From Psilocybe cubensis (lineage: Eukaryota): a stretch of 64,000 bases of DNA. Below, piece after piece: positions 8,833 to 24,460 of this stretch (the first letter of the stretch is position 1; each line of letters begins with the position of its first letter). A program made the position numbers and the translations under genes. The notes beneath the pieces were generated by a model. The model was given only the letters and a program-made list of their open reading frames with translations, had not been told where the DNA came from and did not search any database. Location: the NCBI GenBank assembly GCA_017499595.2, contig CM039004.1, positions 1,550,001-1,614,000 on the forward strand, written 5' to 3'.

Positions 8833-10846
8833 ATGCACACCCAGTCGCCGCGCCAGATGCTCATTCCGGATTCCTATTTAGTCCCGCAAAAGGACGAGTT
8901 GTGTTTCTATTCCGCCTCGTCTCCTGGCGCGTCTGGCGTTGACTCCGAGTGTGCTCCCCGGCGCCCCTTGTCGTATGCGCCCCATAGTTCCACAGCCTCC
9001 GTTCAGTCGTCGTTGCCTCTGTCTAATCAGCCTGTTTCTGTTTCTGTTTCTGTTTCTGTTTCCTCCGCGTCTCCCGCACAAGATTCTCTTTCTTGTGATA
9101 TTAATAGTTCTCCAACGGCCCATTCAACTCGTCCTCTGATGAATTCCTATCAGCTTTCGCAGTCGCCCTCTCCCGTGGACCCCCAGACCAGTCTTTTGCA
9201 TCCCATCAATTTTTCTCAATCCCAGGAATCCTTCCTCCATTCGGAATCCAATCCATATCCGGCAGAAGATCCTTCAATTGATTCTGGTCCAGCTCATAAA
9301 CAACTCGATAAATACTCCAATTCCACTAGTCCCCAATCTTCACTACTCGATCAGCGACGCATGTCCGAGCCTGCTGCTCTCGGGGCCCCTCCCCTCTACT
9401 CTACCGCAGCTAATGACTCTTCACCTAGCAGATACCAAAATTTTGGTTTTGCTTATACTCCTCCTCCTCTTCATCCTGGTCGTTCCTCCTCTTCTGTCTA
9501 TGTCTCCCCGCTCCATCGTGGCGTTAGTACTGGATCCCTTCGCGACTTGCGCCACCATCACTTTGAATACCCTCCTCAGCAGCACCAGGAATGGAAGCAC
9601 GATGACTCCCGTCACCGTGAACAGCCAGGCGATTTTTTTGTCCATCGGACCGACTTGCTCGACGAGCCAGTCTCCCCCTTGCAGTCTACCTTCTCTCATA
9701 ACATGGGTGGCTCCCCGACATCTGGTGTCCCTTACTCACCCATCAGCGACAACCCTTACGGCCCTTCCCCTCCGGGTACTGGCACTTCTACCTCTTCTTC
9801 GGTCGCTCCACTCAGTGCCGGAATACCCTGCAGTCCGTCGCGGTCAATATCTCAGCACTTGCAGAGAAGTCTCAGTGCCTCCCAGCTCTCTGGCGATGTT
9901 ATCGACCGTAAGACTTATTCCTTTGTTGCTCTACCTGGGAACGCAGTCAAGAAGCGTCCAAGGCGACGGTATGACGAAATCGAGCGCCTCTACATGTGCT
10001 CGTGGCCCGACTGCAACAAATCATATGGTACTCTCAACCATTTAAACGCTCATGTCACCATGCAGAAGCATGGTCAGAAACGCAGCCCTAACGGTGAGAT
10101 TGATACGCCCCCTCATCGACAGAATTAATTAATTAATCGACTGTTGTACAGAGTTCAAAGAGCTTCGGAAGCAGTGGCGCAAAGCCAAAAAAGAGCAGGA
10201 AGCCGCAGCTGCGTCCTTGCACCGGGAGAGCTATAGTGACAGCTACGACGATCATGCCTATAACCACCGTTATTTGTCCTCGCACCCGATGCATCATCGT
10301 CCACATTCATCCCACAATGTCTTGGGATTGGCGTCATCGGTGACTATAGGCGGTAATAACGAGCGCTACCCCGCCATGGGTGTCGACGACATTCGATTTT
10401 CTGCTTTAGAGCGCGAGGACGATGCATTGGGCGCCTATGATCATCTAGCCACACGACAGAGGTACAATAACGTGCAGCCCTCGTCGTGGCACGGCGGATC
10501 AAACCTGACCCCGAGGTCAAGTATGCAAAATTTTGGTCCAGGACAACATCCTCACCATTCCCATCTTCCACAACTCAGTATTGGCAACCGGATATCCCAA
10601 CAAGCTCAAGAGGCCGAGTACATCAACGCCCAACATAACCGCCTGCCTCATAATAGTACTCTCCTCACCCCTCTATATCCTGGTTCGTCGTTGATGCCCC
10701 CTCTGCAAAATGGGAGCGGAAGCGTGGCCTATACAGCCGAAGGCTTCGAAATTTACGAAGACGACAATGGGAGGCCCGGTACGGGACACGCTAGTATAGC
10801 TAGCATGGGGCATGCCAGCGGCGACGACTTTGATCATTCCCAATGA
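8833..10846 (+). CDS. C2H2 zinc-finger transcription factor of the Con7 family; 2 exons
   Basis: YSFVALPGNAVKKRPRRRYDEIERLYMCSWPDCNKSYGTLNHLNAHVTMQKHGQKRSPN|EFKELRKQWRKAKKE is the single-finger-plus-helix signature of fungal Con7-like regulators; intron 10094-10152; first ATG at 8833. Confidence 0.85.
9032..9062 (+). repeat. (CTGTTT)n hexamer repeat encoding a VSVSVSVSVS tract
   Basis: About five tandem copies inside exon 1 of the C2H2 gene. Confidence 0.85.
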
Positions 10847-12239
10847 TTATCTGCGACGCTCTGTTCTCCTTGCCGAATACCACCCGTGCTGTTGTCGTTT
10901 CTTTTATTCGGTTATTTATCGACTTCGTCGGTGTGAGGAAATTAGCCACTCTTCTCACTCCATATACAAACCTTTGGCTTTCTCAGCGCGCGCTGGGGTC
11001 TATCTTCTCTACATTCGACTTCCTCCCTTCTTGAATTCTATTTCCCTCACCCTCTCTCACTGTTGTCACTTTGCTATCGCATCTATATATCCTCTGAATT
11101 CGATATCCCCTATTTTATTTTCGTCTATCATCAGGCTCCTATCTACTTTATATACTTTCTTCATTTCACTGGGATGCTTCCTCATTCGTTCGTTTGTACT
11201 TTACATTGGTATAGTCACTATCATTCTGCTGCCACATTGTCGTCACTCCTCGGATCCCACCTGCTACCTCCTATCGATTTTCTTAATAGTTGTAATCTAC
11301 TTAGAAATTCCAAGATGTAAGGCATCATCATCATCATTATACCTTTTTCTGTACATTATTATTCTTATATGTATGTTGTGGAAAATATTCAACCAAAATG
11401 CACACTTCTTTTTGACAGCTGGAAAATATCCGAAGACCTCGAGCCCGGAGATCCGTCAAAATCGAAACTGTGTAATTGAAATATAATTCTCGGGTGCTCG
11501 GTAGAACAGAATGACCTTTGACGAGGAAGAAGCAATCAAATAAGATTGGTGATCTACACTCTGTGTATACGTTGCATCATCATTCCCAGCCGATGACCGT
11601 CAAGCCAACTCTACAGCGCCTCTCAAACTGCCTCGGCTGGCAATTAAAAAAGATATATCATAAGGCCATATACGTACACACGCCGTAAGTGTTCTCAGAA
11701 CCCATGATTCTGACATTGCGCCAAAGAGGAGGGTTCGCGAAAAAAAAACCTTTCATTTGACATCTTCTCCGAGAGAAAAATAACACCTGAGATGATAATT
11801 AAAGAGTTAAAAAAGATTCAGTGGATGCAAGTGGAACTCGCTTTTGATTCACCCAAAGGGACAAAGAGGCCAAGTCGTAAGACCATCGTCATGGGATACA
11901 AAAATCAGCAGTCAAGATGGGCGGGCCAATCACGTCGCGCTTATGGCTTCCAATTCTAAGAAACGTGTTTTGGCATCTGCGCGATCATGCCATTGCTTAC
12001 AGATGAAAAGAGGTCACGTCACACTTGGTGCTTCTCTTCGCACCGCTATGTTATTTCCAGAACAGTGGGCCGTATTGGGTCTTGTTGACAAGTTATAGAC
12101 TTCGCAATCGAAGCATTCTTTGTCTCCTTTTGTCCATCCAAGATGAATTGTGCTATTTATAGCTTCCGTCTCCGGCAAGCTGATTGGGCAATGTCGCGGA
12201 GGTAAATATGATGCAATCAGGAAAAACAGTCTTTGTATG

Positions 12240-12267
12240 TGTCGGAAATTTCGGGATAGCCTTACAA
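12240..12267 (+). repeat. Left terminal inverted repeat
   Basis: TGTCGGAAATTTCGGGATAGCCTTACAA versus reverse complement of the right end TGTCGGAATTTTCAGGAATGCCTTACAA. Confidence 0.88.
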
Positions 12268-13253
12268 TGATGGGGCCTAGATTAGGCCAAAATTTGGCTT
12301 CTAATGTGATTCGGCTCTCTTAGAATGCCGACTTTTGCCTTGCGTTGGATTAGATAAATATAGAAGTCATGTGTCACTCACTTGTAAAGAGGGGCAAATG
12401 AAAATGATTTATAGAATGTATTTAGAGGACCAAATGCGTATTTATTTTGAGAAAATGTGAGTGCTAAATGTACAAGCTACCGTAAGAAACCTACTGAAGT
12501 TGAAGTTGATCCATATTACAACCATACGAGGCCTTACAACTTGACTGTGACTAACGTCACACACATACACAGCAAGTGCAAAGTTGTCAGGCATTCAAGG
12601 GATGGTCAGTATAGATATATCAAATTGGACAATTTTCTACGTCATTGTGGATCATTTACACTTTATTTTATGTACTTTTAGTGCTGTGTCAATATCCCTG
12701 CAGTTTGTGCGCCATAGAGCACAAGTAAGCAAAGGGTCACGGCCGTGAGAAGAATGTCACATGGATCACGCGACACAGTGGACTTAGAAGAAAATCACAT
12801 ACATCGTCTACGTCTTCACCAAAGTAACTGTTTATGTAGCACATGCTATCTACAAAGGTAAATAATCTAGGGTACGGTGGATAATCAGTAATTCCACACG
12901 AAGAGAGACTAATTTTGAACATGATACATGGGAAAGAATGATTTGACTGATATCTCATAAGTTGATGCATTGTAACTCGGTGTTGATTGTTGTATGTTGC
13001 ATGCATATTGCACTGTACAACTATGGTAGTACTGCCTTAATCATCAACAATGAGAATCTTTAACCTCTTAAAGACCTTTGTGCTGGATACTATGACATAT
13101 TTTGATAGATGGTTACTAGAATACATGTTCTGGCAGACTAAATTGATGAACTGATTATGGTAGCTTAGTGATGTAGCGCAGCAGAATGATGAAACTAGGG
13201 CCTATGAGACGAATAATCTCCAGCACACTCTATATTAGATGCTGGTAAAATAG

Positions 13254-13260
13254 TATAAAA
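13254..13260 (+). promoter_or_regulatory. Putative TATA box of the transposase gene
   Basis: TATAAAA about 70 nt upstream of the ATG at 13326, followed by a CT-rich stretch. Confidence 0.45.
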
Positions 13261-13325
13261 GCAGTTGGATCATATTTAATTCTTTATCTGCTCCTCTTTC
13301 TGATATCTTCTTTACTTTCAAAGAC

Positions 13326-16300
13326 ATGGCTAACCGCCGCCAGCCAAAGGACCAATTGTGCCCAATATGCAACAAGATGTTTAGCATCCAAGGCATTGCT
13401 CAACATATCCGATCATGTAGTGGCAAAACACCAAGTCTGGATGCACAGAATGCTTTTGGAGATTTTGCAAATAGGGTTTATGAAAATAGTATGTCATAGT
13501 GTATAATCTAATTATTGACATTTACCATTCAAAACTCATACAGACTCTCTACATTATACATCAATTTTAAATGCTGCTATTAGCCACTCTCCAGCTATAC
13601 CAAATGAGGATTCTACAACCGCTTCTTATTCTGCTATAGATATGGCTCAAATGGAGACACAGGATTCTCTAAATGGTCATCATATTTCCCTTTCAATGGA
13701 GCCGGAAGATTCAATTGAGCCAGTCACAAATCAATCCTCTATACTTCAAATGCTTGATGAAATTTCAAATAATCATTTGCCCCCACCGCTTCCACATCAA
13801 ATCTGCATTGAATTTCATCCAAGTGCAAATATGCCACCAAAATTCATTCCTACACACCAATATAATCCAAATTCCTATCAAACGTCACCAACACCCCATT
13901 CTACCAGTACCAACCCGTGGCATCCATTTAGGACACGTCTTGACTTCGAAGTGGCAGAACTTGCACTTAGCTCACATATGAATAGGCAGCAAAAGCAGAT
14001 TTTATTAACCCTTATTGACAGAATCAAAGAAAAGCCAGAGCAGTTTACAATTGACAGTGTATCAGAGCTTGAGAAGACCTGGGAGCTTGCTCGTAGCTAC
14101 CGTTCAACTGGAGTGCGTAATATTTTTTCTATTTTGTAGTTGTACTAACTAATACTATGGAGTACAGTTCCAGAAAAAGGAATATCTTGTACCATACCAA
14201 AATGATGAAATTGGGTATGAAGTGTATATCCGGCCACTAATTGAGTGGTGCAATAGTCTTCTTCAGAATCCTTCTCTACTTTCACAGTTTCATTGGATTG
14301 CTGAAAGGCATTATAAACAAAATGACGGTAAACGAGACCGGTTGATTGGAGAACCATGGACTGCAAATGAATGGTGGAGCATCCAGGTAGATGTATATAT
14401 TTTTCTTTTTACAAATGTAGAATACTTATCATCCTACTCTGCTTTAGAACCTTCTTCCCAATGGTGCATTACCATTTTTTATTATCCTATATGCAGACAA
14501 AACTCGGCTATCCACCTTTGGTACTGCAAAGGCATATCCAGTGCTTGCTCGCTGTGCAAATCTTCCAGCAAATCTTCGAAACAGTGATGGTATTGGTGGG
14601 GGAATCCTAGTTGGATGGCTGCCTATTGTAAGCATTCTAAATGTTATAAATTTTTTTAGTATTAAACTCCAAATATGGATTTCTAGGTTGATGAAGATGC
14701 TGGCGAGTCAGGAAAGAAAATTTTTGTAAACTTCAAGCGTATTGTTTGGCACAAAGGATTCCACGAAATTCTTAAGTCCGTTCAAGAATATGCCACAACA
14801 GGATACTATGCACAGTGTGCAGACAACATTGTCCGGTGGCTATTCTTCTTTATTTTGATTTTATCAGCGGATTATGAAGAGCAGTAAGTAATAGTTTACT
14901 TCAATATAATTGTTATAGTAAATGAAACTGTTGGGCGCCTATTTTATAGATGTGTTATGGCCCTAACCCGTGGTGCTACAAGCAACTTTCCGTGTCCTGT
15001 ATGCTTGGTTCCAAAGGAAAATTTATCAAATCTTACCACGGTATACCCTTATCGAACATCAGCAGAAATGAAACACATATATACAGAGGCACAAAATTTT
15101 ACAGCTAAAGATAAGGAGAATTATTTAAAAGAATATGGATTACGAAATGTAGAGGTATAGTGCATTATATATGTCATTATTCTTGATTAATATTTCCTAC
15201 AGAATGTATTTTGGATGATGAATGGGAGTGATGTATATAAAGCTCTTTCCTGGGATCGACTACATGCATACCATGGTGGACTATTTTCTGATCATTTATG
15301 GTCAGAATTTAAGGCTATTATTGATAGCTCTGGAAGGAAAGATGCTGAGATTATTGACAATCAGTAAGCATTGATAATATAACCTCTTGATGGATAAGTA
15401 ATAATAAGGTTTATGCTTTTATAGATTTGATCAAATTCCTCGATGGAGTGGTCTTAATCACTTTGCATCTATAATTAAGACAGGAGAATTTGCAGATGGA
15501 ACAAAATATGAAGATATAGCAAAGGTACACATGCATTTTTTAGACACTAATTGTGAATATAATATATCTGTGATTTCTAGATCATTTGTTATGCATCTCA
15601 TAATGTTCTAGAGAAGTCAGACCGTGGATATTGTCTGCTCAAGCTTATGCGAAGCTTTGTAGAATTGGATATGTATTCATCTTTGATTATTCATAGCAGT
15701 ACAACATTACATGGGTTACAAAAAGAACTTGCAAAGTTCTGTTCTATTCTTGAGGTAAGGCATTCTCCAATTCATATGTAGACCCAATTAATTCTCTCAA
15801 CAATAAAATTTCCAGGAATATATTCAACTCCATCCAGACAAAAATTGGAATTTTCCTAAAATCCATTCACATGTCCATATGATTCAAGATATTGTTGCAA
15901 AAGGTGCAACTCGGAACTCTAATACTAAACCCAATGAAAAGGCACATGGCTTGCTTAAGCTCTGGTACCGCTTTCACACCAATTTCAAAGATGTGGCGCC
16001 ACAGGAATGTGCTTTAATTCATGTGTACAATATTATTTGTCTGATCTAGTAAATTTGCTTCTAACAGATATTAAAAATGAACCACGATGATCTTATTGCA
16101 ATGATTATTCGCATGGATATCAATGCTATTGATGATCTTGACATGCCCAAAGAGGACGGCGAAGAATCACTTATATCTACACCACAAGTTTCCAATCTTG
16201 GAAATTCATTGGGTAACGGTCTATTTGTTTGTACATGTATAATGTTATTAAATTGACATTTAACAGGATCAAGTAATGAGAAAAGAGCTCAAAGTCACAT

Positions 16301-16987
16301 TTCAATTGGGTCACTTCAAGCAATAATCACATTTGCCGATGTGGAAAAACAATTCAAAGAGAACATGGCATTTGAACGCTTCCGGATTAAAACAGGAAAA
16401 TACCTTGCAGCAGCTTCTGGAAGTACTATCCGATTAAAAGCCAATCATAAGGTAAGAGTTACAAGAACAATTTAAGCATTATTTATTTTTCATGTCAAAA
16501 CTTACTTGTGTAACAGATTACACCATTTGAGCTTGCAAGAATTCATTATCAGTCGGAAATTGATTGGTCGGCTCAAAGAGATATGGTTCGAGTTAGCAAA
16601 AGTTTCCACAAGCGGCCACGAAATGATTACGTCCTTTTGGCACTTGATCATCAGAAGTACTGCTTTGCACAACTTCTGTTCATGTTTATTGTGTCATTAG
16701 ATGACAAAACAGAGTGGCCGCTTGCTCTTATTCTGCCACTTGATGAACCGGTTGATCAGCGCACAAATTTGGCACGTAGGCGTGATAAAGATTTAGAGTT
16801 TCTCCGAGTACGAGCCCGAAGGCGAACAAACTCTGCAATTATTGACGTACGTAGTATAGTACGCGGTGGCCTTCTGATTCCAGACTTTGGAAATGATGCA
16901 AACGAGTTTATTGTTATGGATTCACTTGATCCGGACATGTGGTGGCGGTTAAAATCAATAAAATTAACTACACATGTTTTATTATAA
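13326..16987 (+). CDS. Plavaka-family DDE transposase with N-terminal zinc finger; about 13 exons
   Basis: N-terminal CPICNKMFSIQGIAQHIRSC. Motifs NPWHPFRTRLDFEVAE, GEPWTANEWWSIQ, IILYADKTRLSTFG-AYPV, LSADYEEQC, FPCPVCLVP, WDRLHAYH and WNFPKIHSHVH...GATRNSNTKPNEKAH resemble the Plavaka transposase family (PF18759). The frame stays open across 12 inferred introns, one of which needs a GA donor. Confidence 0.85.
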
Positions 16988-17258
16988 CTAGTGTTGTTAC
17001 ATATTAAACAGAATACAATAAAGAGTGTAATCAAGCATGCATAGTGCTCTATTTTTGTGTTTTGTACACGTTATATTAAATTTTCAGCTTGATCCTTTAC
17101 ATAGTGGGAAAATGATGTTATATCAAGGCTATAGCACGGCGCTTAACATGAGGAAAGGGTGCGGCTCACTTTTCTGTTTAAAAGACACAAAATTTCTTCT
17201 TTCTGAGTAGCAGCACTGATATTCTAACTCATATCCTCTCTGGTACAACTCTTTGGTC

Positions 17259-19257
17259 ATGTCTTCATCAATGTCAATTGTTCCAAGCTCCGTTGCAGGC
17301 GAGTCATCCATTTCAGGCGCGTCTTTTTTCCGTGGAGCAACATTGGCCGAGCTTGAGCAAGTAAGTAATATTTTAATGTATTTTTGCATTTTCTAGATTC
17401 TAATGAATAGAAACAGAGGTGTCGGATCCAGCAAGATACCATTTTTAATCTGGAATCAAAGGTCCGGGAGCTTAAAGAGGAAAACGCAAGTTTGAAAATG
17501 CGCTTGATCAACAAAAAAGGCGCTGTTCGACCTGCTGTCTCTGACACATCGGATTGCGCAGCCGAAATAGCTCTCCGAAAGGACCTTATTCGTCTTGCTA
17601 AATATCATTTCATTTTCTATCGTATTATTGTTCCCAAGTCACTCTTTGGAAATCCCAGGCCTTCGTTCAGCTCTAACAATGCATCTGCTCGGTACAAAGA
17701 CGAGAATACATCCAAGCTTGGCAATATTGCGGAATTGTACGAATGCTTTCCAGCAAAGTACCATTCAATTATCAGTGAGAATGTGGAGATGGCAGTTAAT
17801 GTGGTGCGTTTTATATCTTTTTTCCAAGTTTAGGATATCTTGCTCATATATCTTTATTCTATAGTTCGTTAAAGGCTTGTCGGAAGGCCGTTCAACAATA
17901 CTAAATAAGATTCGGACCTCTGCGCCTTCTATTTTCCCAAACATTCCATCTGAGCTGTTCACCTCACCATTGTCTTTTGGCCTAAGCTCCCATGCGGTTG
18001 TGCAAACATTGCTTGGTGCATCGGACCGTGTAAAAGTGATGACCGGAACGAAGGAAATCTGGAAGCTCATTTATCCCAATGACACTGCGCACACATTTCC
18101 CCCAGTTTTATTTGCAGATTCTGACACCAACAACGCTTTGGGACTTTTTAAAAGTGATTTTCTTTTGAAGGTACAGTATATTTAATTCTGAAAATACATA
18201 ATACCTGGCTAAAACTCTAGTTTAGACGGCAAGAATCATTCTTCTAGGGCCATCGGCCTTAAAGGCGGAGATTATGCCTCGAACACGGGAAGATAGTCCA
18301 AGCGCCCATATTGATAGTCGTATGAATTGTACAACACCAGGCTTGATAGCTGCGTCTGCAACAGCGGTATGTATTTGTTATTACATGTATTATAAATTGA
18401 GTGCTAGATATTGACTACTAATATAGACTATATACATCTTATCCGACGACCGTGAATTTACCAGTAGTGGTGTAGGACCAACAACAGGGAGGCTTTATCT
18501 TGCTCAACACGATATGTACAAGCATTATCTCATTACACAGCAGTCATCACTCGCTTCACTGTTCAAATATTGGGATAATATTCTCTTTCCACACCAAAAA
18601 CCCATTATTCCTACTTCTATTACACAGCAGCCTACGGAAATCCTTACATCAAGCCATTCCAGGATGTCGGATTCCGAGTCAAGTCCATCTCCGCATCCGG
18701 TTTATCAGATGATTGCCAACTTTAGTCGACAAACAACCATAACTCCTAGTTCAACAACTTCTATTCCGGGTCCTATCGTTAATGTGGAAGACCGTGACAC
18801 CGACTCTGATGTAGAAGACTTTGCGCCGCCACTACAAAGCACTCGGAACCTGCCATCTAATACTCAGGATATTACTGAAGATAGATCTGATACTGACGAA
18901 GGTACTTGTCTTTTGATTCCCACGCGTTTAGCTCATGCCCATTATGTATCATTGGTATTAGAACCGACTCCGGCAGCCTTTGAGTCTGCACTCCATGTTA
19001 CAAATACCACGGTCAATGCTCCACTCCCAGTATTTCTCCCAGTTCCGAAGACTCAGACTCCGACAAGCCCTCCCCTTTCTTCCAATACAGTCTCTGTTCC
19101 TAATGCTTCCACAAGCATTTCTCCACTTGAAGCACCAGTAATCAAGCCAAAACGTGGTCGAAAGAAGGGGTTGGCCCCTGTGCAGCCTGACGCAACTGTT
19201 GTAGCCAAAACACGGAGCACACGCTCTAGTAAGCGTGCTAATATTACACCATTATAG
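17259..19257 (+). CDS. Transposon-borne accessory protein (coiled coil, conserved-looking core, S/T/P-rich tail with basic AT-hook-like motif)
   Basis: Exons join in frame: MSSSMSIVP...ELEQ|KQRCRIQQDTIFNLESKVRELKEENASLK...|FVKGLSEGRSTILNKIR...FPPVLF...|TARIILLGPSALK...TTPGLIAASATA|TIYILSDDREF...KPKRGRKK...NITPL*. Lies wholly inside the TIRs. Confidence 0.72.
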
Positions 19258-19857
19258 TAGGCACGCTGTACTTAGACTACTTTGCATTCCGGTGTATCTC
19301 ATTATGGCGGACATACTACTGTGTTTGGTTGATTACTTCTTTGCTTTTCAATGCATAGTACGGCCCTCACGATTGAGATTGTCTGAAAAAATTGAAGTCC
19401 GAGTAGACGACTCTGGACTCGATCGGTTACATCAGTTGACTAAGCACAGAAAATGTGGTGTCATATTAACGCCACACTATAATTTAAGAAAGGAGGTTTG
19501 GTCTAGTGGTAACAATGCTATTGGTAGGTTTGTCTTGTCTTGAAGGTCTGGCGTTCGGTTCTTGGTAAGTGCATAAAAGTTTGACTTCAACACAATTCCT
19601 ACTGAAAGCAATCGTTGACTACTAATCAATTGGAAACTATGTCAGTGCGTTCATCTTCCTTTTAATTTGTTAGATGCCCTTTGAATCAAGCCCAACCTAG
19701 CAAGGTCTTTTAATCTAATCTTATTCCCTACGCCTTGCTAGGCATGTATAGACTTCTAAGCCACTACCTTACAAGGTCAATCACGGTTACTTCTTAGGCA
19801 CGCTCTCAGATTGGGAGGCATCACAAGGCTAGCCGGGCCTTGCCGGCCTTTTCGGCC

Positions 19858-19885
19858 TTGTAAGGCATTCCTGAAAATTCCGACA
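19858..19885 (-). repeat. Right terminal inverted repeat
   Basis: TTGTAAGGCATTCCTGAAAATTCCGACA, followed by TG (TSD). Confidence 0.88.
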
Positions 19886-20080
19886 TGGTCAAATCGTTTA
19901 TAGACGCCGCTGATTGGCTGATATGGTATTTGAGCTTTTCGAATCGACTGTCTGGCGCATTGTTATAAAGTTCTCGGAAGGAGGCAAGTAAATGAACTGA
20001 CACTTCGGGGCGACAGGGTTTGTTTAAACTTCTTACGTCGCACGATTGCTGTGTGTGCCAAATGTGTTTCCGTTGATCAT

Positions 20081-21180
20081 TTATTTTATAATCTGATATG
20101 ATGGCCTTTGCCTAAGAAACTCGAAGTTGCTGGGTACATGAAACCAATCCCAATCGCTTCGACTTCTCTTGTTCCGAGTACGTAGATGGATGTCGAGCTC
20201 CAGTCTCAAGAGCCAATCATCGTATTGGATGTAGCGCGAGTGTGGGCGCGCTTCAGTGGCTCCATTCCCCTCGGAAGCCGTCGAGGGTAATACCGCAGAA
20301 AGAAGTAAATTTACGACAAAGTTATAATTCAATTTATACGGTGTGCTCGGAATTCTGATTGTTATTGTTGACAGAATCCTATACCGGCCCTCCGGAACAC
20401 CGATTTTGTCACTTCGCGTTGGAGGGAAGCGAATTTCACCCCGTGATGAAGATTTAATCAATAAGAACCACCCTCAAGCCGTAACGGAACAATAAGTTCA
20501 TTGTAGATAGGTGTGTGGCCGACTCTGATCCACTTTCGCAAAACGCATGACCGAATGAGGCAACTTGAAAGGATTTCAGTTGTAGCAAAATTATGATACC
20601 GAAAATCAAATCTAATTGAGCTGATTTCTGATCTACGCTGGGCAGGTAGATTGGACAAGATGCAATACCATGCATAAAAACCATGCTGAATTCTATATGG
20701 GTAGAAATGTTGACAGTAAAGGCGAACATTATTCCTGAGGGAGCGGATACATTCAAACTGTCCGCCTGATATCATTTTTTGTTCTTCATCGCCCAATGAA
20801 AGGCAGGCAGGGACGAAGTCTAGACTCGGATCGCTTGTGGTGAGATGGCAGAAAGCTTTAGGCCGATGATAACTAGTCCTATCAAGCTTATCCAGTCGGC
20901 AGATATTGGAATCGGAGAAGGGCACGTAAACACCATACTTTAAAGCTAGAAGTAAAGACGTTGGAAACTTTGGAGAGGAGAATGTTTTGGTAGGTCATGA
21001 TGGAACCAAAGCGAGAGTACCCAGAGAATGTGCAATACCGCAGTTGAGCGGAGAATAAGTGGATACACCTTTGAGAAAAGAAGTGAGGCTGTAGAGGCTT
21101 GCTATTCCGTGACATCCAGGAGGTTCCGAAGGAAACTATAGTCACGAGTGTTTCTGGTATTGAAAAACAGTGATACAAAC
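20081..21180 (-). pseudogene. Possible degraded gene, perhaps an Agaricomycete F-box-like protein
   Basis: Chain of abutting minus-strand ORFs in shifting frames with no clear splice sites; the N-terminal piece SIPETLVTIVSF...FSQRCIHLFS loosely resembles fungal F-box starts. Confidence 0.25.
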
Positions 21181-22112
21181 TGACATTACGGAATTAGATG
21201 GACGCTCCAGACTTTTGCCTGACCACTCGTCCTTAAACAGTGAAACAGGGTACCCCGCGCAATAAGGAAGCATCCTCTGGGGTTCTGAGCGACAAAAAAA
21301 GATGCGTCCCCTCTTCATATTTATCCCAGGTGGAATAAATGGAAGTGAAAACGTTGCATATAGAGGCTTTTGGTGCCACATACCCATAAGGATCAAAGAT
21401 ATGTTTTCCTCTCCTACCATGTCTAGTCCTCAAGCGACATGGCGCTCCGATATCCGATTAACAGTTCTTGAGTATCAAGATAACCCAGTAATTTTGAAAA
21501 GTCTTCATATAACCTCCACAGGATATAAAGGCATTGTTGACGAGTATAGATTTGGGATACGCTACGCATCGCAAATGACAAGGAGGGCCCAGCGAGTGTA
21601 CAGCAAGCTCGATCATCGTGTTTCGACCCAAGAAAACCTTGAAAAGAGTCACAAGAAGATTGTGCATACACAGCTCATGAAGTGCAAGCTGCACGAAGAT
21701 GATAGGTTTCCCTTTTTGAAGACAAGAAGGATACAGTTACGGATAGGCAACTTGAATGAGTAGTAAAGTCAGTCAAAGTGAGACGTTGGACGCGACGCGT
21801 TATGAACGTTGACCGCGAACAGCGATAAACGTAAACAAGGCCAATCCAAGCGGGTGGGCGGGCCGCCGTATAGCGCATTACTATGAGATCATTAATACTT
21901 ATCGCAGCAACCACTTGACTGCGCCTGTCTGAAACGGGCAAACACTCATCTTGTACTCTTCCTCTACCAATCCAATTCCCGTTGTTAGTCTAGCATAGGT
22001 ATTCTCATCCTAACCCGCACACGCCGTAATTCAAGGGTCCAGGATCATCATCAGCAGAACCTCACTCTCTACAAGATACTCCACCGTGAAAGCTTTTATC
22101 GCATCGAGTACT

Positions 22113-24460
22113 ATGTCGCAACAAGGCCGCCTGGACCTCTCCCAGATTCCAATCGAGGTTCTACTCGATAACATTCTACCTCTCATACCAGTACCAGACT
22201 TGCTTAATCTGGCCCGTTGTAGCAAGGTGGATGGTTCGAAAGCATTGTAGCATCTTATGTGTTCTGATTGAACTTTGGCAGTCACTTTTGACTCTGTGTA
22301 ACGATGATAGTCTTTGGAAATATAAACTGTCCCAGGACTTCAACTTTTCAGGGAAGGATACGGCCCGTACAAGTGGGTGGAAATTTATTTACCAAGGGCT
22401 GTTTAAACCACGAGGTGAGTGCTTCGAGACATATCTTTCAAATGTATCAACTAATGACACCTCCAAAACTTCTAGTATTTGTTTGGGGGTATGATTGCCT
22501 TTCTCTTATAGGCCAATTTTGACTACTATTTTCTCAATTGCGATTCTTTAGTGACAAGACCAACGGACGACTGGGACTTCCAAACGTTCCTAAATCAGTG
22601 ATACGAGACGGAGTTCCATATCCAACACAGATCCCGTTTTCTGCACGTATTGTCAGCTTGGTTGCGGGAGGCATGTGAGTACTTGTCTATTGAATTTGTT
22701 ACATATATTTTCAATTACTTTGGTAAGGTCATTTCATGCTCTCGACTCTGAGGGTAATGTTTATGTTTGGGGTATGACGTAGTTTTACCTATGCCTCCGT
22801 CGCTTAAATATCTAACAGATTTATATAGGCAGTCTTAATGGGGCGCCGGGGACGGCACATGCATCTGACAGTCATGGATTTTCGAGTAGCTGGAAATCAG
22901 CAAGGATACCTCATCGTCTGAGGCTACCATCACCCATCCGCAGTATCAGGTGAAGAAAATCAGTCGTCTATCAAGGGTTTTTACTCACACGGTGGTGACA
23001 TATTTAGTTGTGGACGCCTGCATTCGTCATTTCTGGATCGCACAAACAAGATTTGGACATGTACAAATTGGGGCCGACCCTTCTGGTTATCATCTCCCAT
23101 TCTGACGGATCCTGATTACGCTCCGAAACAGGTTGAATGTGGATGGATGTTCTCTTCTCTTCTGACGAAATCAGGTGCTGTCTTTGTCTGGTGGCCGTTC
23201 TCAGGTTCAATGGGAGAAGCCATCCAACAGAAAATGGAGGAGATGAATTCCGAAGGCGACAAAAAAGCTTATGCCACTGAGGATAATCTAATTCCGTGCA
23301 TTCCATGGGGTGTGGACATAATGCCCACCCGCTTGCCACCTATACCCACATTACCCGAGCTAGCGAACACTACCAACACAAACACAATGACGGAGCTCAT
23401 CCAGATTGCCGCTTTTGACAACCACATTGTCGGATTGACAAACTATGGACATGTTCTGAAATATGGTTCACTGCACGACGAAAGCGGCGTTCCATTCGGG
23501 CGCTGGGAATATGTGGGTTTTTTTTACCCGAACATCTACGCAATTGCTGAAACCCTGTAGCTCCCGCAATTCAGCGAAGTCGACTCTCTTAAAATACATA
23601 CAACTTTCTCAGGAAGAACCACTGATTCCGCGAAGCTCGAGGCTCCTCATACAATTCAAATCACCCATGTCAGTAGTTCTCCTATTCGCACAGTGTCAGA
23701 ATACTTATTTATCAAACGTTGAACAGTTATCTGCCAACTTCCTTCATTTCGTTGCCTATTCCACTGGATCTTCATCTATTGTTCTTGTCGGGGACACCGA
23801 TACAAAACCAGACACACCGCCAAAAATAATTCCGGAGTTGCAGAACAAATCGATCATCTCTGTAGTCATTGGTGACTATCATAATGCCGCTTTAACGGCT
23901 AACGGTAAATTGTTAACTTGGGGATCATATTCGAATGGTGCGTTGGGTTTGGGAGACCCACTCAAACTCGAACTCGGCACACCTGGGGCGTTCGCGAACA
24001 GAGAGGAACTCGAATTAGCGAAGGCGAGAAGATTCGGACAAAGAGTACCACCTGTAGTAAATACACCAACCGAGGTCAGGTTCGACCATAACAGTAAAAA
24101 GCCCAGAGAACGATTCTGCTTTGCCGCAACGGCCGCCGGATGGCATACAGGTGCTCTGGTAATAGATCTTGAGGTATGTCATTTGTGCAATTTGCTATGT
24201 CCGAGGTCAGCAGAATAAGGTTTCTGACTTTTCATATTCGCGCCTTTTAGTCGGGGGATGACGAAGCGGAGGAGGAACAAATGCGACACGATTCTGCGGA
24301 AGCGCCGAGTCCGAGTGCGTCAGCTAGACGGCAGTGGGAGACACCTCCCATCCTACCTCTCTCAGGAATTTTCCGCATCGGACACGCTGGACGCGGTAAC
24401 TTTGGGGGCGGGTTGGGTGGAATACATCCTCGAGGCCGTAACGATGGGGATACTTCATAA
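22113..24460 (+). CDS. F-box plus RCC1-repeat protein (Saf1/Pof9-like SCF adaptor), multi-exon
   Basis: F-box LSQIPIEVLLDNILPLIPVPDLLNLARCSK...LWKYKL; RCC1-type repeats VFVWGDKTNGRLG, LVAGGMSFHALDSEGNVYVWG, VIGDYHNAALTANGKLLTWG...GALGLG, AAGWHTGAL; TAA 24458-24460. Confidence 0.85.

What the first reader, a model, noticed from the sequence alone, without database searches (positions are those of the whole stretch)
17259..19257. Uncharacterised second gene carried inside the transposon: candidate TnpA-like end-binding partner
Seen: a multi-exon open gene downstream of the transposase and inside the TIRs. It encodes an N-terminal coiled coil, a globular-looking core (FPPVLF; ARIILLGPSA; TTPGLIAASATATIYILSDD), a disordered S/T/P tail and a basic KPKRGRKK motif. 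Known: plant CACTA elements pair the transposase with TnpA, a DNA-binding protein that binds subterminal repeats, and some transposons encode anti-silencing proteins. Inference: this may be the fungal equivalent, either an end-binding factor or an anti-methylation factor, forming a little-described two-component system. The core loosely recalls basidiomycete TE-associated DUF proteins such as DUF6698, which I cannot confirm.
Basis: partly seen in the sequence, partly recalled or inferred. Interest (0 to 1): 0.7.

Follow-up and report, generated by a model that had tools for sequence, protein, structure and literature searches.

The report
Second gene of a Plavaka transposon
The gene is real and is a conserved companion gene that travels with the transposase inside a recently mobile jumping-DNA element of the mushroom Psilocybe cubensis, but what its protein does is still unknown.

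Summary
Observation confirmed. Window 17259-19257 is a six-exon gene. Its product equals a RefSeq Psilocybe cubensis protein (P0006) and meets Pfam DUF6698 (43.6 bits against a cut-off of 23.7).

Reads and contigs of other strains show an empty site joining 12236 to 19885. The element is therefore 12240-19885 (7,646 bp) with TGT..ACA ends, about 30-bp imperfect TIRs and a 2-bp TSD, which are the PlavakaA features of PMC12730594. The gene lies inside it, 271 bp downstream of an intact transposase gene on the same strand.

The pairing is conserved:
- All 6 annotated P. cubensis loci carry both genes.
- 6 of 120 Plavaka transposase representatives are fused upstream of a DUF6698 part.
- 9 of 20 DUF6698 homologues lie on a contig of the same length, in the same species, as a listed Plavaka transposase.
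- Distances of the two proteins co-vary (Mantel r 0.70, p 1e-4).

The core is a confidently predicted all-alpha domain with no convincing solved-structure match. It is flanked by a coiled coil, an acidic linker and a basic tail.

A TnpA-like end-binding or anti-silencing role is not shown. I found no paper naming DUF6698 or PF20414.

The parts
12240..19885 (+). Complete PlavakaA-type DNA transposon, 7,646 bp, with TGT...ACA termini
   Evidence: Empty-site joint 12236->19885 (skips 7648, 3 letters fit either side) in X11 (15 reads), X5 and X7. An X5 contig of 7,646 nt covers exactly 12240-19885 with 2 differences and has foreign flanks on both sides. Ends read.
12238..12239 (.). Target-site duplication TG, left copy (right copy at 19886-19887)
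   Evidence: A second insertion in X5 shows a 2-bp duplication GA in its loose-end flanks (table 7).
19886..19887 (.). Target-site duplication TG, right copy
12240..12269 (+). Left terminal inverted repeat, about 30 bp; contains one CCTTACAA copy at 12260
   Evidence: In the comparison of the two ends, 25 of the first 30 positions match the reverse complement of the right end.
19856..19885 (-). Right terminal inverted repeat, about 30 bp; contains one CCTTACAA copy at 19858 (-)
12532..12539 (+). Subterminal CCTTACAA copy, 292 bp from the left end
   Evidence: 4 copies in the window, none outside the element's end regions.
19767..19774 (+). Subterminal CCTTACAA copy, 119 bp from the right end
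13326..16987 (+). Multi-exon Plavaka transposase gene, with an N-terminal C2HC-like finger and an intact D, D, E, C(2)C and H(3)H set
   Evidence: P0007 and P0002 map exactly onto the window. PF18759 E 1.7e-54. Conserved catalytic columns in A5. Weak zf-C2HC_2 match, 20.6 bits, below the cut-off of 27.
16988..17258 (+). 271-bp spacer between the transposase stop and the start codon of the second gene
   Evidence: The only 2 differences between the window and the X5 copy lie here, at 17094-17095.
17259..19257 (+). DUF6698-family accessory gene: 6 exons, 570 aa
   Evidence: exact match to P0006; Pfam; 183 homologous clusters.
17343..17524 (+). Coding region of the N-terminal coiled coil (P0006 residues 25-68; spans intron 1)
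   Evidence: Single long helix in the AlphaFold2 model. Only sub-threshold zipper and coiled-coil Pfam matches. Coordinates are my conversion from residue numbers.
17558..18606 (+). Coding region of the conserved all-alpha core (P0006 residues about 80-370; spans introns 2-4). The Pfam DUF6698 part is about 17871-18585.
   Evidence: Coordinates are my conversion from residue numbers.
18607..19134 (+). Disordered, net acidic Ser/Thr/Pro-rich linker. It includes an in-frame 60-nt intron at 18902-18961.
   Evidence: Mostly pLDDT below 55. Linker charge -12. Intron.
19135..19254 (+). Basic C-terminal tail: last 40 aa with net charge +10, and KPKRGRKK at 19144-19167

Best explanation
The gene is the conserved second gene ('ORF2') of an autonomous, recently mobile PlavakaA cut-and-paste transposon of Psilocybe cubensis.

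Shown here:
- The gene lies inside the element, downstream of the transposase gene and on the same strand.
- It is kept in every annotated copy.
- It has diverged together with the transposase across many Plavaka lineages of mushroom-forming fungi.

These points mean the gene is maintained because it serves the element.

Inferred mechanism (about one chance in three for the details): the protein is not an enzyme. It is a nuclear cofactor that oligomerises through its coiled coil. The basic C-terminal tail gives nuclear import and/or unspecific DNA contact. The acidic linker and the new all-alpha core contact the transposase or chromatin. Together these would help the transposase to assemble or act at the element ends. 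This is functionally comparable to TnpA of En/Spm or the Myb-like protein of Harbinger, without being related to either.
For: Location and mobility:
- The empty site in three other samples bounds the element at 12240-19885.
- X5 and X7 hold the same element (2 differences in 7,646 nt in X5) with other flanks, while their site here is empty.
- X11 has zero depth over 16255-19590.

All 6 annotated loci of one P. cubensis assembly carry both genes, either fused or as neighbours with consecutive locus tags such as JR316_0004027/0004028.

A second P. cubensis Plavaka lineage (P0161) has the same order. Its transposase is 49% identical and its DUF6698 part 54% identical.

Wider linkage:
- 6 of 120 listed Plavaka transposase representatives carry a DUF6698-family part, always C-terminal.
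- 2 of the 149 other listed DUF6698 hits searched carry a Plavaka C-terminal part upstream.
- In Gymnopilus dilepis the two genes have consecutive tags, CVT26_005455 and CVT26_005456, on a 21-kb contig.
- 9 of 20 DUF6698 homologues looked up share species and contig length with a listed transposase.
- Distances of 12 transposase/DUF6698 pairs correlate (Mantel r 0.70, p 1e-4). Nearest neighbours agree in 8 of 12, including paralogous lineages within one species.

The reading frame is intact and the architecture conserved even at 45-81% amino-acid distance.

Conserved architecture:
- The linker is net acidic in 66 of 68 members.
- The last 40 residues carry net charge +4 or more in 38 of 68.
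- The median core pI is 8.85.
- The long helix and the confident core appear in two models.

Only D318 and G327 among the polar and small residues are kept in more than 90% of 97 members, which does not look like a catalytic set.
Against: - No experiment or RNA data show that the protein is made or needed.
- No DNA-binding or protein-binding fold was recognised, so the mechanism is inference from architecture alone.
- The transposase has its own N-terminal C2HC-like finger, so it may not need a partner for end recognition.
- For 11 of 20 homologues looked up, no listed transposase lay on a contig of the same length.
- Several conserved polar residues (R124, H148, R170, T300, S316, D318, Y334) could still form a ligand or active site.
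- The pairs used for the Mantel test were chosen by co-location, and related sequences are not independent.
Confidence: 0.7

Rival explanations
1. TnpA-like end-binder. The protein is a sequence-specific DNA-binding dimer. It recognises the repeated CCTTACAA motif in the TIRs and subterminal regions and brings the two ends together for the transposase.
For: CCTTACAA occurs 4 times in 64 kb, all in the element's end regions: twice in the TIRs and twice subterminally. The protein has a coiled coil suited to dimerisation. It has a basic tail with RGR/KRGRKK-type motifs and a mildly basic core. The top-ranked weak structural matches for the core include the DNA-binding homeo-prospero domain (Z 4.9, 116 residues aligned, seen with both models).
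Against: Z 4.9 is within the noise for helical proteins according to the tool's own note. No Pfam DNA-binding family matched any of 78 members at E <= 0.1. There are only 4 motif copies, two of which are the TIRs themselves, and the motif was chosen after seeing it. The transposase has its own zinc-finger-like N-terminus that could read the same motif. The basic tail is conserved in charge but not in sequence, which fits a nuclear import signal or unspecific binding better than specific binding.
Confidence: 0.2
2. Anti-silencing or chromatin factor. The protein protects the element from DNA methylation or heterochromatin. It would be the PlavakaA functional counterpart of the TET/JBP genes carried by PlavakaB and KDZ elements.
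For: According to PMC12730594 (section 3.2.2, read), all TET-carrying Plavaka families are PlavakaB, so PlavakaA elements lack that cargo. This element has PlavakaA ends and carries DUF6698 instead. An acidic linker followed by a basic tail is common in chromatin-associated proteins (my own knowledge; charges).
Against: The models are all-alpha with at most one small hairpin, not a double-stranded beta-helix. There is no Tet_JBP or other enzyme family hit and no clearly catalytic residue set. No methylation data were available.
Confidence: 0.15
3. Not a separate gene. The region encodes the C-terminal part of one long transposase protein, as several public gene models have it.
For: Public models P0001, P0002, P0003 and others fuse the two parts. 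6 of 120 transposase representatives are fused in this way.
Against: The transposase frame ends in a stop at 16985-16987, and the second gene has its own ATG 271 bp later. The fusion needs a 340-nt intron with donor GTTAAA, against 50-61 nt introns elsewhere in the gene. The same element is also annotated as two genes (P0006 + P0007). Most of the 150 listed homologues are free-standing proteins of roughly 400-700 aa. A minor alternatively spliced fusion product cannot be excluded without RNA data.
Confidence: 0.08
4. Passenger. The gene is a captured host gene or selfish cargo with no role in transposition.
For: DNA transposons do capture host genes. No function has been shown.
Against: The position and orientation are the same in at least seven diverged lineages. 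The gene has co-diverged with the transposase. The frame is intact at more than 50% protein divergence. The family is multi-copy in genomes: for example 5 loci of at least 90% identity in Flammula alnicola and 6 loci in P. cubensis.
Confidence: 0.07

Closest known systems
Pfam DUF6698 (PF20414), family of unknown function
   Same: Member by the curated threshold: 43.6 bits against 23.7, nearly the full profile length. 72 of 78 aligned homologues also match.
   Different: The homologous region is larger than the Pfam model. It covers query residues about 38-370 against 164-363 for the model, and includes the coiled coil and about 85 more core residues. I found no text linking the family to Plavaka elements: 0 papers hold 'DUF6698' or 'PF20414'.
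PlavakaA DNA transposons (Kojima 2025, PMC12730594; CMCT clade with EnSpm/CACTA, Transib and RAG1)
   Same: [quoted passage not shown]
   Different: The sections and passages of that paper that I read (section 18, the figure legends, and the passages found) describe no non-TET second protein for Plavaka.
En/Spm (CACTA) TnpA/TnpD two-protein system of maize
   Same: An element of the same broad clade with a transposase plus a second element-encoded protein. Both genes lie on one strand, and short motifs are repeated in the ends (my own knowledge of En/Spm; layout here).
   Different: There is no sequence or fold likeness to TnpA (fold searches). Only 4 motif copies are present. Here there are two separate reading frames with a spacer. 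Whether one transcript is alternatively spliced, as in En/Spm, is unknown.
PIF/Harbinger Myb-like ORF1 protein
   Same: A non-catalytic companion protein encoded beside the transposase. In Harbinger it is needed for nuclear import and end recruitment (my own knowledge; PMC12730594, passage seen, mentions the Myb/SANT protein of Nuwa).
   Different: No Myb/SANT domain is present. It belongs to a different transposase superfamily.
TET/JBP dioxygenase cargo of PlavakaB, Kyakuja, Zisupton and other fungal transposons
   Same: A second gene carried by fungal DNA transposons, including Plavaka (PMC12730594, abstract and section 18).
   Different: The fold is all-alpha, not a double-stranded beta-helix, and there is no HxD...H set. 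It is found here in a PlavakaA-type element, whereas the TET-carrying ones are PlavakaB.

Membership tests
Pfam DUF6698 (PF20414) | Whole-protein score at or above the curated gathering score of 23.7 bits | tested here: met
   P0006 scores 43.6 bits, E 3.6e-11, residues 164-363 on profile positions 1-205 of 206. Single exons alone gave no hit.
PlavakaA transposon (PMC12730594) | Transposase of the Plavaka family (PF18759) | tested here: met
   E 1.7e-54 and 185.7 bits on P0002, whose transposase part the window encodes.
PlavakaA transposon (PMC12730594) | Termini 5'-TGT..ACA-3' | tested here: met
   The element ends are defined by the empty-site joint and by the 7,646-nt X5 contig. The end sequences were read.
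PlavakaA transposon (PMC12730594) | 2-bp target-site duplication | tested here: met
   TG at 12238-12239 and 19886-19887. A second insertion in X5 is flanked by GA on both sides (table 7).
PlavakaA transposon (PMC12730594) | [quoted passage not shown] | tested here: met
   In alignment A5 of 61 transposases, D247, D352, C371, C374, H586, H590 and E610 are invariant or nearly so.
PlavakaA transposon (PMC12730594) | Placement of the transposase in the PlavakaA clade of the published tree | not tested
   The reference sequences are in supplementary files that were closed.
En/Spm TnpA | Sequence homology to plant TnpA proteins | tested here: not met
   No Pfam family other than DUF6698 and coiled-coil families matched recurrently among 78 members at E <= 0.1.
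En/Spm TnpA | Specific binding to subterminal repeats of its own element | not testable with these tools
   Only the motif census is available: 4 CCTTACAA copies, all in the end regions.
TET/JBP dioxygenase (including the divergent PE type) | Double-stranded beta-helix fold with an H-x-D/E...H iron-binding set | tested here: not met
   Both models are helical with at most one hairpin. There is no such conserved residue set and no Pfam hit.
bZIP / leucine-zipper DNA-binding proteins | A basic DNA-contact region directly N-terminal of the zipper, and a Pfam bZIP score above the cut-off | tested here: not met
   bZIP_1 scores 14.8 bits against 27.6 and TSC22 16.7 against 30, both on the zipper only. 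No basic stretch precedes the helix in P0006.
Any solved fold (PDB) | Convincing structural match of the core | tested here: inconclusive
   The best Foldseek E-values are 0.78 and 2.1. The best VIA Z-scores are 5.0 (KRIT1 FERM, 60 residues) and 4.9 (homeo-prospero, 116 residues). The best BFVD E-value is 1.0.

The most novel reading that the evidence does not exclude
DUF6698 proteins are a previously undescribed class of transposon companion protein with a new fold. They would be essential for PlavakaA transposition, for example as the factor that brings the transposase to its ends or shields the element from silencing. The near-identical copies that sit at different sites in different Psilocybe cubensis strains would then be a currently active two-gene element in which this can be tested directly.
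Probability: 0.3. Interest if true: 0.7.

Novelty: new variant of a known kind. Interest (0 to 1): 0.55.

Why it matters
Plavaka elements are among the most abundant DNA transposons of mushroom-forming fungi (PMC8290104, passages seen). They belong to the clade that gave rise to RAG1. Published descriptions that I could read treat them as transposase-only or TET-carrying elements.

This work assigns a genomic role to a Pfam family of unknown function: a conserved, co-evolving companion gene of Plavaka transposons. It also explains why public gene models of these loci are inconsistent, since the same element is annotated as fused or split in four different ways. Finally, it points to an apparently active element in which the companion's role in a RAG1-related transposition system could be tested. 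That role could be end recognition, nuclear import or anti-silencing.

Tried and rejected
Routes that gave nothing:
- Exon-by-exon Pfam scans found only sub-threshold zipper hits.
- No whole genome is held for this window.
No DNA context of homologues could be fetched, so linkage rests on fused models, locus tags and contig lengths.
- The search for homologous proteins with the family profile returned only 5 proteins because of its word filter.
- The PNAS 2014 paper that named Plavaka (PMC3918813) is not held. Supplements of PMC12730594 were closed.
- Earlier findings of this scan held nothing on this genome or this protein.

Structure and sequence searches without a convincing match:
- Foldseek against PDB, with the whole model and with the core-only model of the homologue P0058.
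- Foldseek against BFVD.
- VIA-align against 48,161 chains.
- PDB sequence searches with the protein and with the profile. These gave only coiled-coil matches at E 0.046 or worse.

Complex prediction on the transposase core (P0002 residues 160-877) with the DUF6698 core (residues 85-366) gave no answer (score 0.22, mark 0.34).

On expression: no RNA holder was listed. The one probable RNA run that I laid (X13) covers only the two flanking host genes, and whether that strain carries the element is unknown.

Ideas considered and dropped:
- The protein is the divergent 'PE-type' TET/JBP of PMC12730594. Rejected because the fold is all-alpha.
- It is a tyrosine recombinase, suggested by the conserved R, H, R and Y residues. 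Rejected because their order does not fit the R..K..HxxR..Y pattern, which I recalled from memory, and no fold match appeared.
- It is related to DUF6532. The language-model feature score is 0.94 with 145 shared features. I keep this only as a lead.
Full report
**Observation**

The stretch 17259-19257 holds a real six-exon gene on the + strand. Exons 17259-17360, 17411-17803, 17865-18170, 18226-18366, 18427-18901 and 18962-19257 are separated by five GT..AG introns of 50-61 nt. The 570-aa product contains the 566-aa RefSeq protein P0006 (XP_047752170.1, Psilocybe cubensis) letter for letter from residue 5. A search with exon 3 alone returned only Psilocybe cubensis proteins at 100% identity, so the window is from that species.

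The protein reaches the curated threshold of Pfam DUF6698 (43.6 bits against 23.7, E 3.6e-11, profile 1-205 of 206). Single exons are too short to show this match.

**The element and its mobility**

I laid one raw-read DNA run and three sets of contigs on 10000-22500. This gave an empty-site joint from 12236 to 19885 (7,648 bases skipped, 3 letters fitting either side). The joint appears in 15 reads of X11 and in one contig each of X5 and X7.

- X5 also holds a 7,646-nt contig that covers exactly 12240-19885 with 2 differences. Two different foreign flanks are seen at each of its ends.
- X7 holds the element in pieces, with another foreign flank.
- X11 has flank depth of about 30 but zero depth over 16255-19590.

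So the element is 12240-19885 and begins TGT and ends ACA. Its first 30 bases match the reverse complement of its last 30 at 25 positions. It is flanked by the duplication TG. One of the X5 insertions is flanked by GA on both sides, which settles the duplication at 2 bp rather than 3.

These are the features that PMC12730594 (section 3.2.2, read) gives for PlavakaA: 2-bp duplications and TGT..ACA termini. Near-identical copies at different sites in different strains, with this site empty elsewhere, indicate recent transposition.

The element carries two genes:
- A multi-exon Plavaka transposase gene at 13326-16987 (PF18759). Its conserved D, D, E, C(2)C and H(3)H positions are intact. Its N-terminus is a weak C2HC-like finger, 20.6 bits, below the cut-off.
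- The DUF6698 gene, after a 271-bp spacer.

I saw no other convincing reading frame in the 1.1-kb left region or the 0.6-kb right region. There is no other copy of either gene elsewhere in the window: 0 of 192 tblastn hits lie outside 13300-19300.

**One gene or two**

Public annotation is inconsistent. The same element is modelled in four ways: as fused proteins of 1,313-1,467 aa, as 1,049 + 432 aa, and as 566 + 919 aa.

The fusion needs a 340-nt intron (16948-17287) with the donor GTTAAA. All introns inside the DUF6698 gene are 50-61 nt. The transposase frame has its own stop and the second gene its own ATG. Most of the 150 listed homologues are free-standing proteins of roughly 400-700 aa. 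I therefore read two genes. A minor spliced fusion product cannot be excluded without RNA data.

**Family and linkage**

A full HMMER scan of 1.84 billion representatives found 183 clusters at E <= 0.001 and 39 at E <= 1e-10. Homology runs over query residues about 38-370.

Of the 20 representatives I looked up, 19 carry names. All 19 are from gilled-mushroom genera: Laccaria, Gymnopilus, Phlegmacium, Psilocybe, Flammula, Mycena, Pholiota, Coprinellus, Coprinopsis, Agrocybe and Cyclocybe. Their assignment to the order Agaricales is my own knowledge. Several are multi-copy within a genome.

Linkage to Plavaka transposases shows up in five independent ways:

1. All 6 annotated loci of one P. cubensis assembly carry both parts.
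2. A second P. cubensis lineage, P0161, has the same order at 49% (transposase) and 54% (DUF6698 part) identity.
3. A profile of the family detects a DUF6698 part in 6 of 120 listed Plavaka transposase representatives, always C-terminal. These are P0001, P0002, P0161, P0173 (Agrocybe chaxingu), P0232 (Crepidotus variabilis) and P0278 (Coprinopsis sp.). In addition, 2 of the 149 other listed DUF6698 hits searched (P0045, P0144) carry the C-terminal part of a Plavaka transposase upstream.
4. In Gymnopilus dilepis the two genes have consecutive locus tags on a 21-kb contig. In all, 9 of the 20 homologues looked up share species and contig length with one of the 120 listed transposases (356 were found, 120 listed). 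The matched contigs range from 21 to 808 kb, seven of them under 350 kb, in genomes of tens of megabases (genome size is my own knowledge). That is far more than chance, but contig length is a proxy and no distances were measured.
5. For 12 transposase/DUF6698 pairs the two distance matrices correlate (Mantel r 0.70, p 1e-4 from 9,999 permutations). Nearest neighbours agree in 8 of 12. In one case a Flammula lineage groups with Gymnopilus, not with the other Flammula lineage, for both proteins.

Caveats: the pairs were chosen by co-location, and related sequences are not independent. Against the linkage, for 11 of 20 homologues no listed transposase lay on a contig of the same length, and none of the 10 longest non-Psilocybe hits scanned had a Pfam Plavaka domain.

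**The protein**

AlphaFold2 was run with a 78-sequence alignment and gave mean pLDDT 75 and pTM 0.67. The model shows:
- One long helix over residues 25-68.
- A core over residues 80-370, with 10-residue block means of pLDDT mostly above 90 (range 79-98). It is almost all alpha, with one hairpin at 215-230.
- A disordered tail from residue 374.

A core-only model of the natural short homologue P0058 gave pLDDT 88 and pTM 0.82 with the same helices.

Neither model has a convincing match. The best Foldseek E-values against PDB are 0.78 and 2.1, and 1.0 against BFVD. The best VIA-align Z-scores are 5.0 (60 residues) and 4.9 (116 residues, homeo-prospero domain). Those values are below what the tool itself calls meaningful for helical proteins. 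PDB sequence searches hit only coiled coils.

Across 97 members the best-kept residues are G327, D318 and P241, followed by R124, H148, R170, T300, S316 and Y334 at about 80-88%. Outside the core, the sequence is not conserved but the charge pattern is:
- The linker is net acidic in 66 of 68 members.
- The last 40 residues carry net charge +4 or more in 38 of 68, often with RGR/KRGRKK-like motifs.
- The median core pI is 8.85.

**How it most likely works**

Shown: the gene belongs to the element, moves with it, and has been kept with the transposase through deep divergence. For a transposon-borne gene, this argues that it contributes to the element's own propagation.

Inferred: the protein oligomerises through its coiled coil and enters the nucleus through the basic tail, which may also touch DNA. 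It then acts with the transposase at the element ends or on chromatin. I put the general claim at about 0.7 and this particular mechanism at about one in three.

The more specific readings are lower:
- A sequence-specific binder of the CCTTACAA motif (4 copies, all in the end regions), at about 0.2.
- An anti-silencing factor replacing the TET/JBP cargo of PlavakaB, at about 0.15.

Neither has direct support. The transposase's own finger could read the ends without help.

**Comparison with what is known, and novelty**

The element works like the two-protein transposons En/Spm (TnpA plus TnpD) and Harbinger (Myb-like protein plus transposase). The companion protein is not a member of either family, nor of TET/JBP. 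It is a member of Pfam DUF6698, a family with no stated function.

No paper in the searchable library holds 'DUF6698' or 'PF20414'. The passages I read in the Plavaka literature do not mention a non-TET second gene:
- PMC12730594: outline, section 18, figure legends and found passages.
- PMC8290104, PMC9674265 and PMC5751038: found passages only.

The founding paper (PMC3918813) was not available. The supplementary element sequences of PMC12730594 were closed, so prior description there or in Repbase cannot be ruled out.

I class this as a new variant of a known kind: a two-gene DNA transposon whose companion protein is of an unrecognised fold and family role.

**Limits**

There are no RNA data, no DNA of homologous loci, no measured gene distances outside P. 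cubensis and Gymnopilus dilepis, and no biochemical evidence.

Noticed in passing
window 13326-19257: Public P. cubensis annotation models the same two-gene element in four incompatible ways: fused 1,313-1,467 aa, 1,049 + 432 aa, and 566 + 919 aa. The 919-aa transposase model P0007 skips the exon that carries the second catalytic D and the C(2)C motif. That exon is present in the window at about 14831-15106 and in P0002.
   Followed up: partly
window 17271-17303 (N-terminus of the DUF6698 protein): The N-terminal motif SIVPSSVAGE is nearly invariant among three P. cubensis DUF6698 lineages that are otherwise only 48-55% identical. The acceptor of the fused gene models lies inside it. It could be a short interaction motif or a constraint at the nucleotide level.
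   Followed up: no
window 18902-18961: The last intron is 60 nt, in frame and free of stop codons, so retaining it would simply add 20 residues to the disordered linker.
   Followed up: no
window 17411-17416: Public models use two acceptors 6 nt apart at the start of exon 2: LEQKQRCR in P0002 and P0006, against LEQRCR in P0001.
   Followed up: no
window 14709-16005: In the strain X11, which lacks this element, short islands of the transposase core still collect reads at 90-95% identity with foreign flanks. These are other Plavaka families in that genome.
   Followed up: no
window 10092-10151 and 22224-22280: Contigs of the probable RNA run X13 confirm GT..AG introns in the two flanking host genes. 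These are a C2H2 zinc-finger gene upstream and an F-box/RCC1-like gene downstream. The element sits in the intergenic space between them.
   Followed up: partly
P0006 residues 75-370 (window 17543-18606): In the ESM Atlas the nearest named family after DUF6698 is DUF6532, another Basidiomycota-only family (score 0.94, 145 shared features, 25 of 30 hits). One paper lists DUF6532 as expanded together with KDZ and Plavaka domains in some Ganoderma genomes (PMC8955403, passage seen). It is a possible distant relative or another transposon companion.
   Followed up: partly
window 17094-17095: The only two differences between the window's copy and the 7,646-nt copy in X5 (also seen in X7) lie in the spacer between the two genes.
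   Followed up: no
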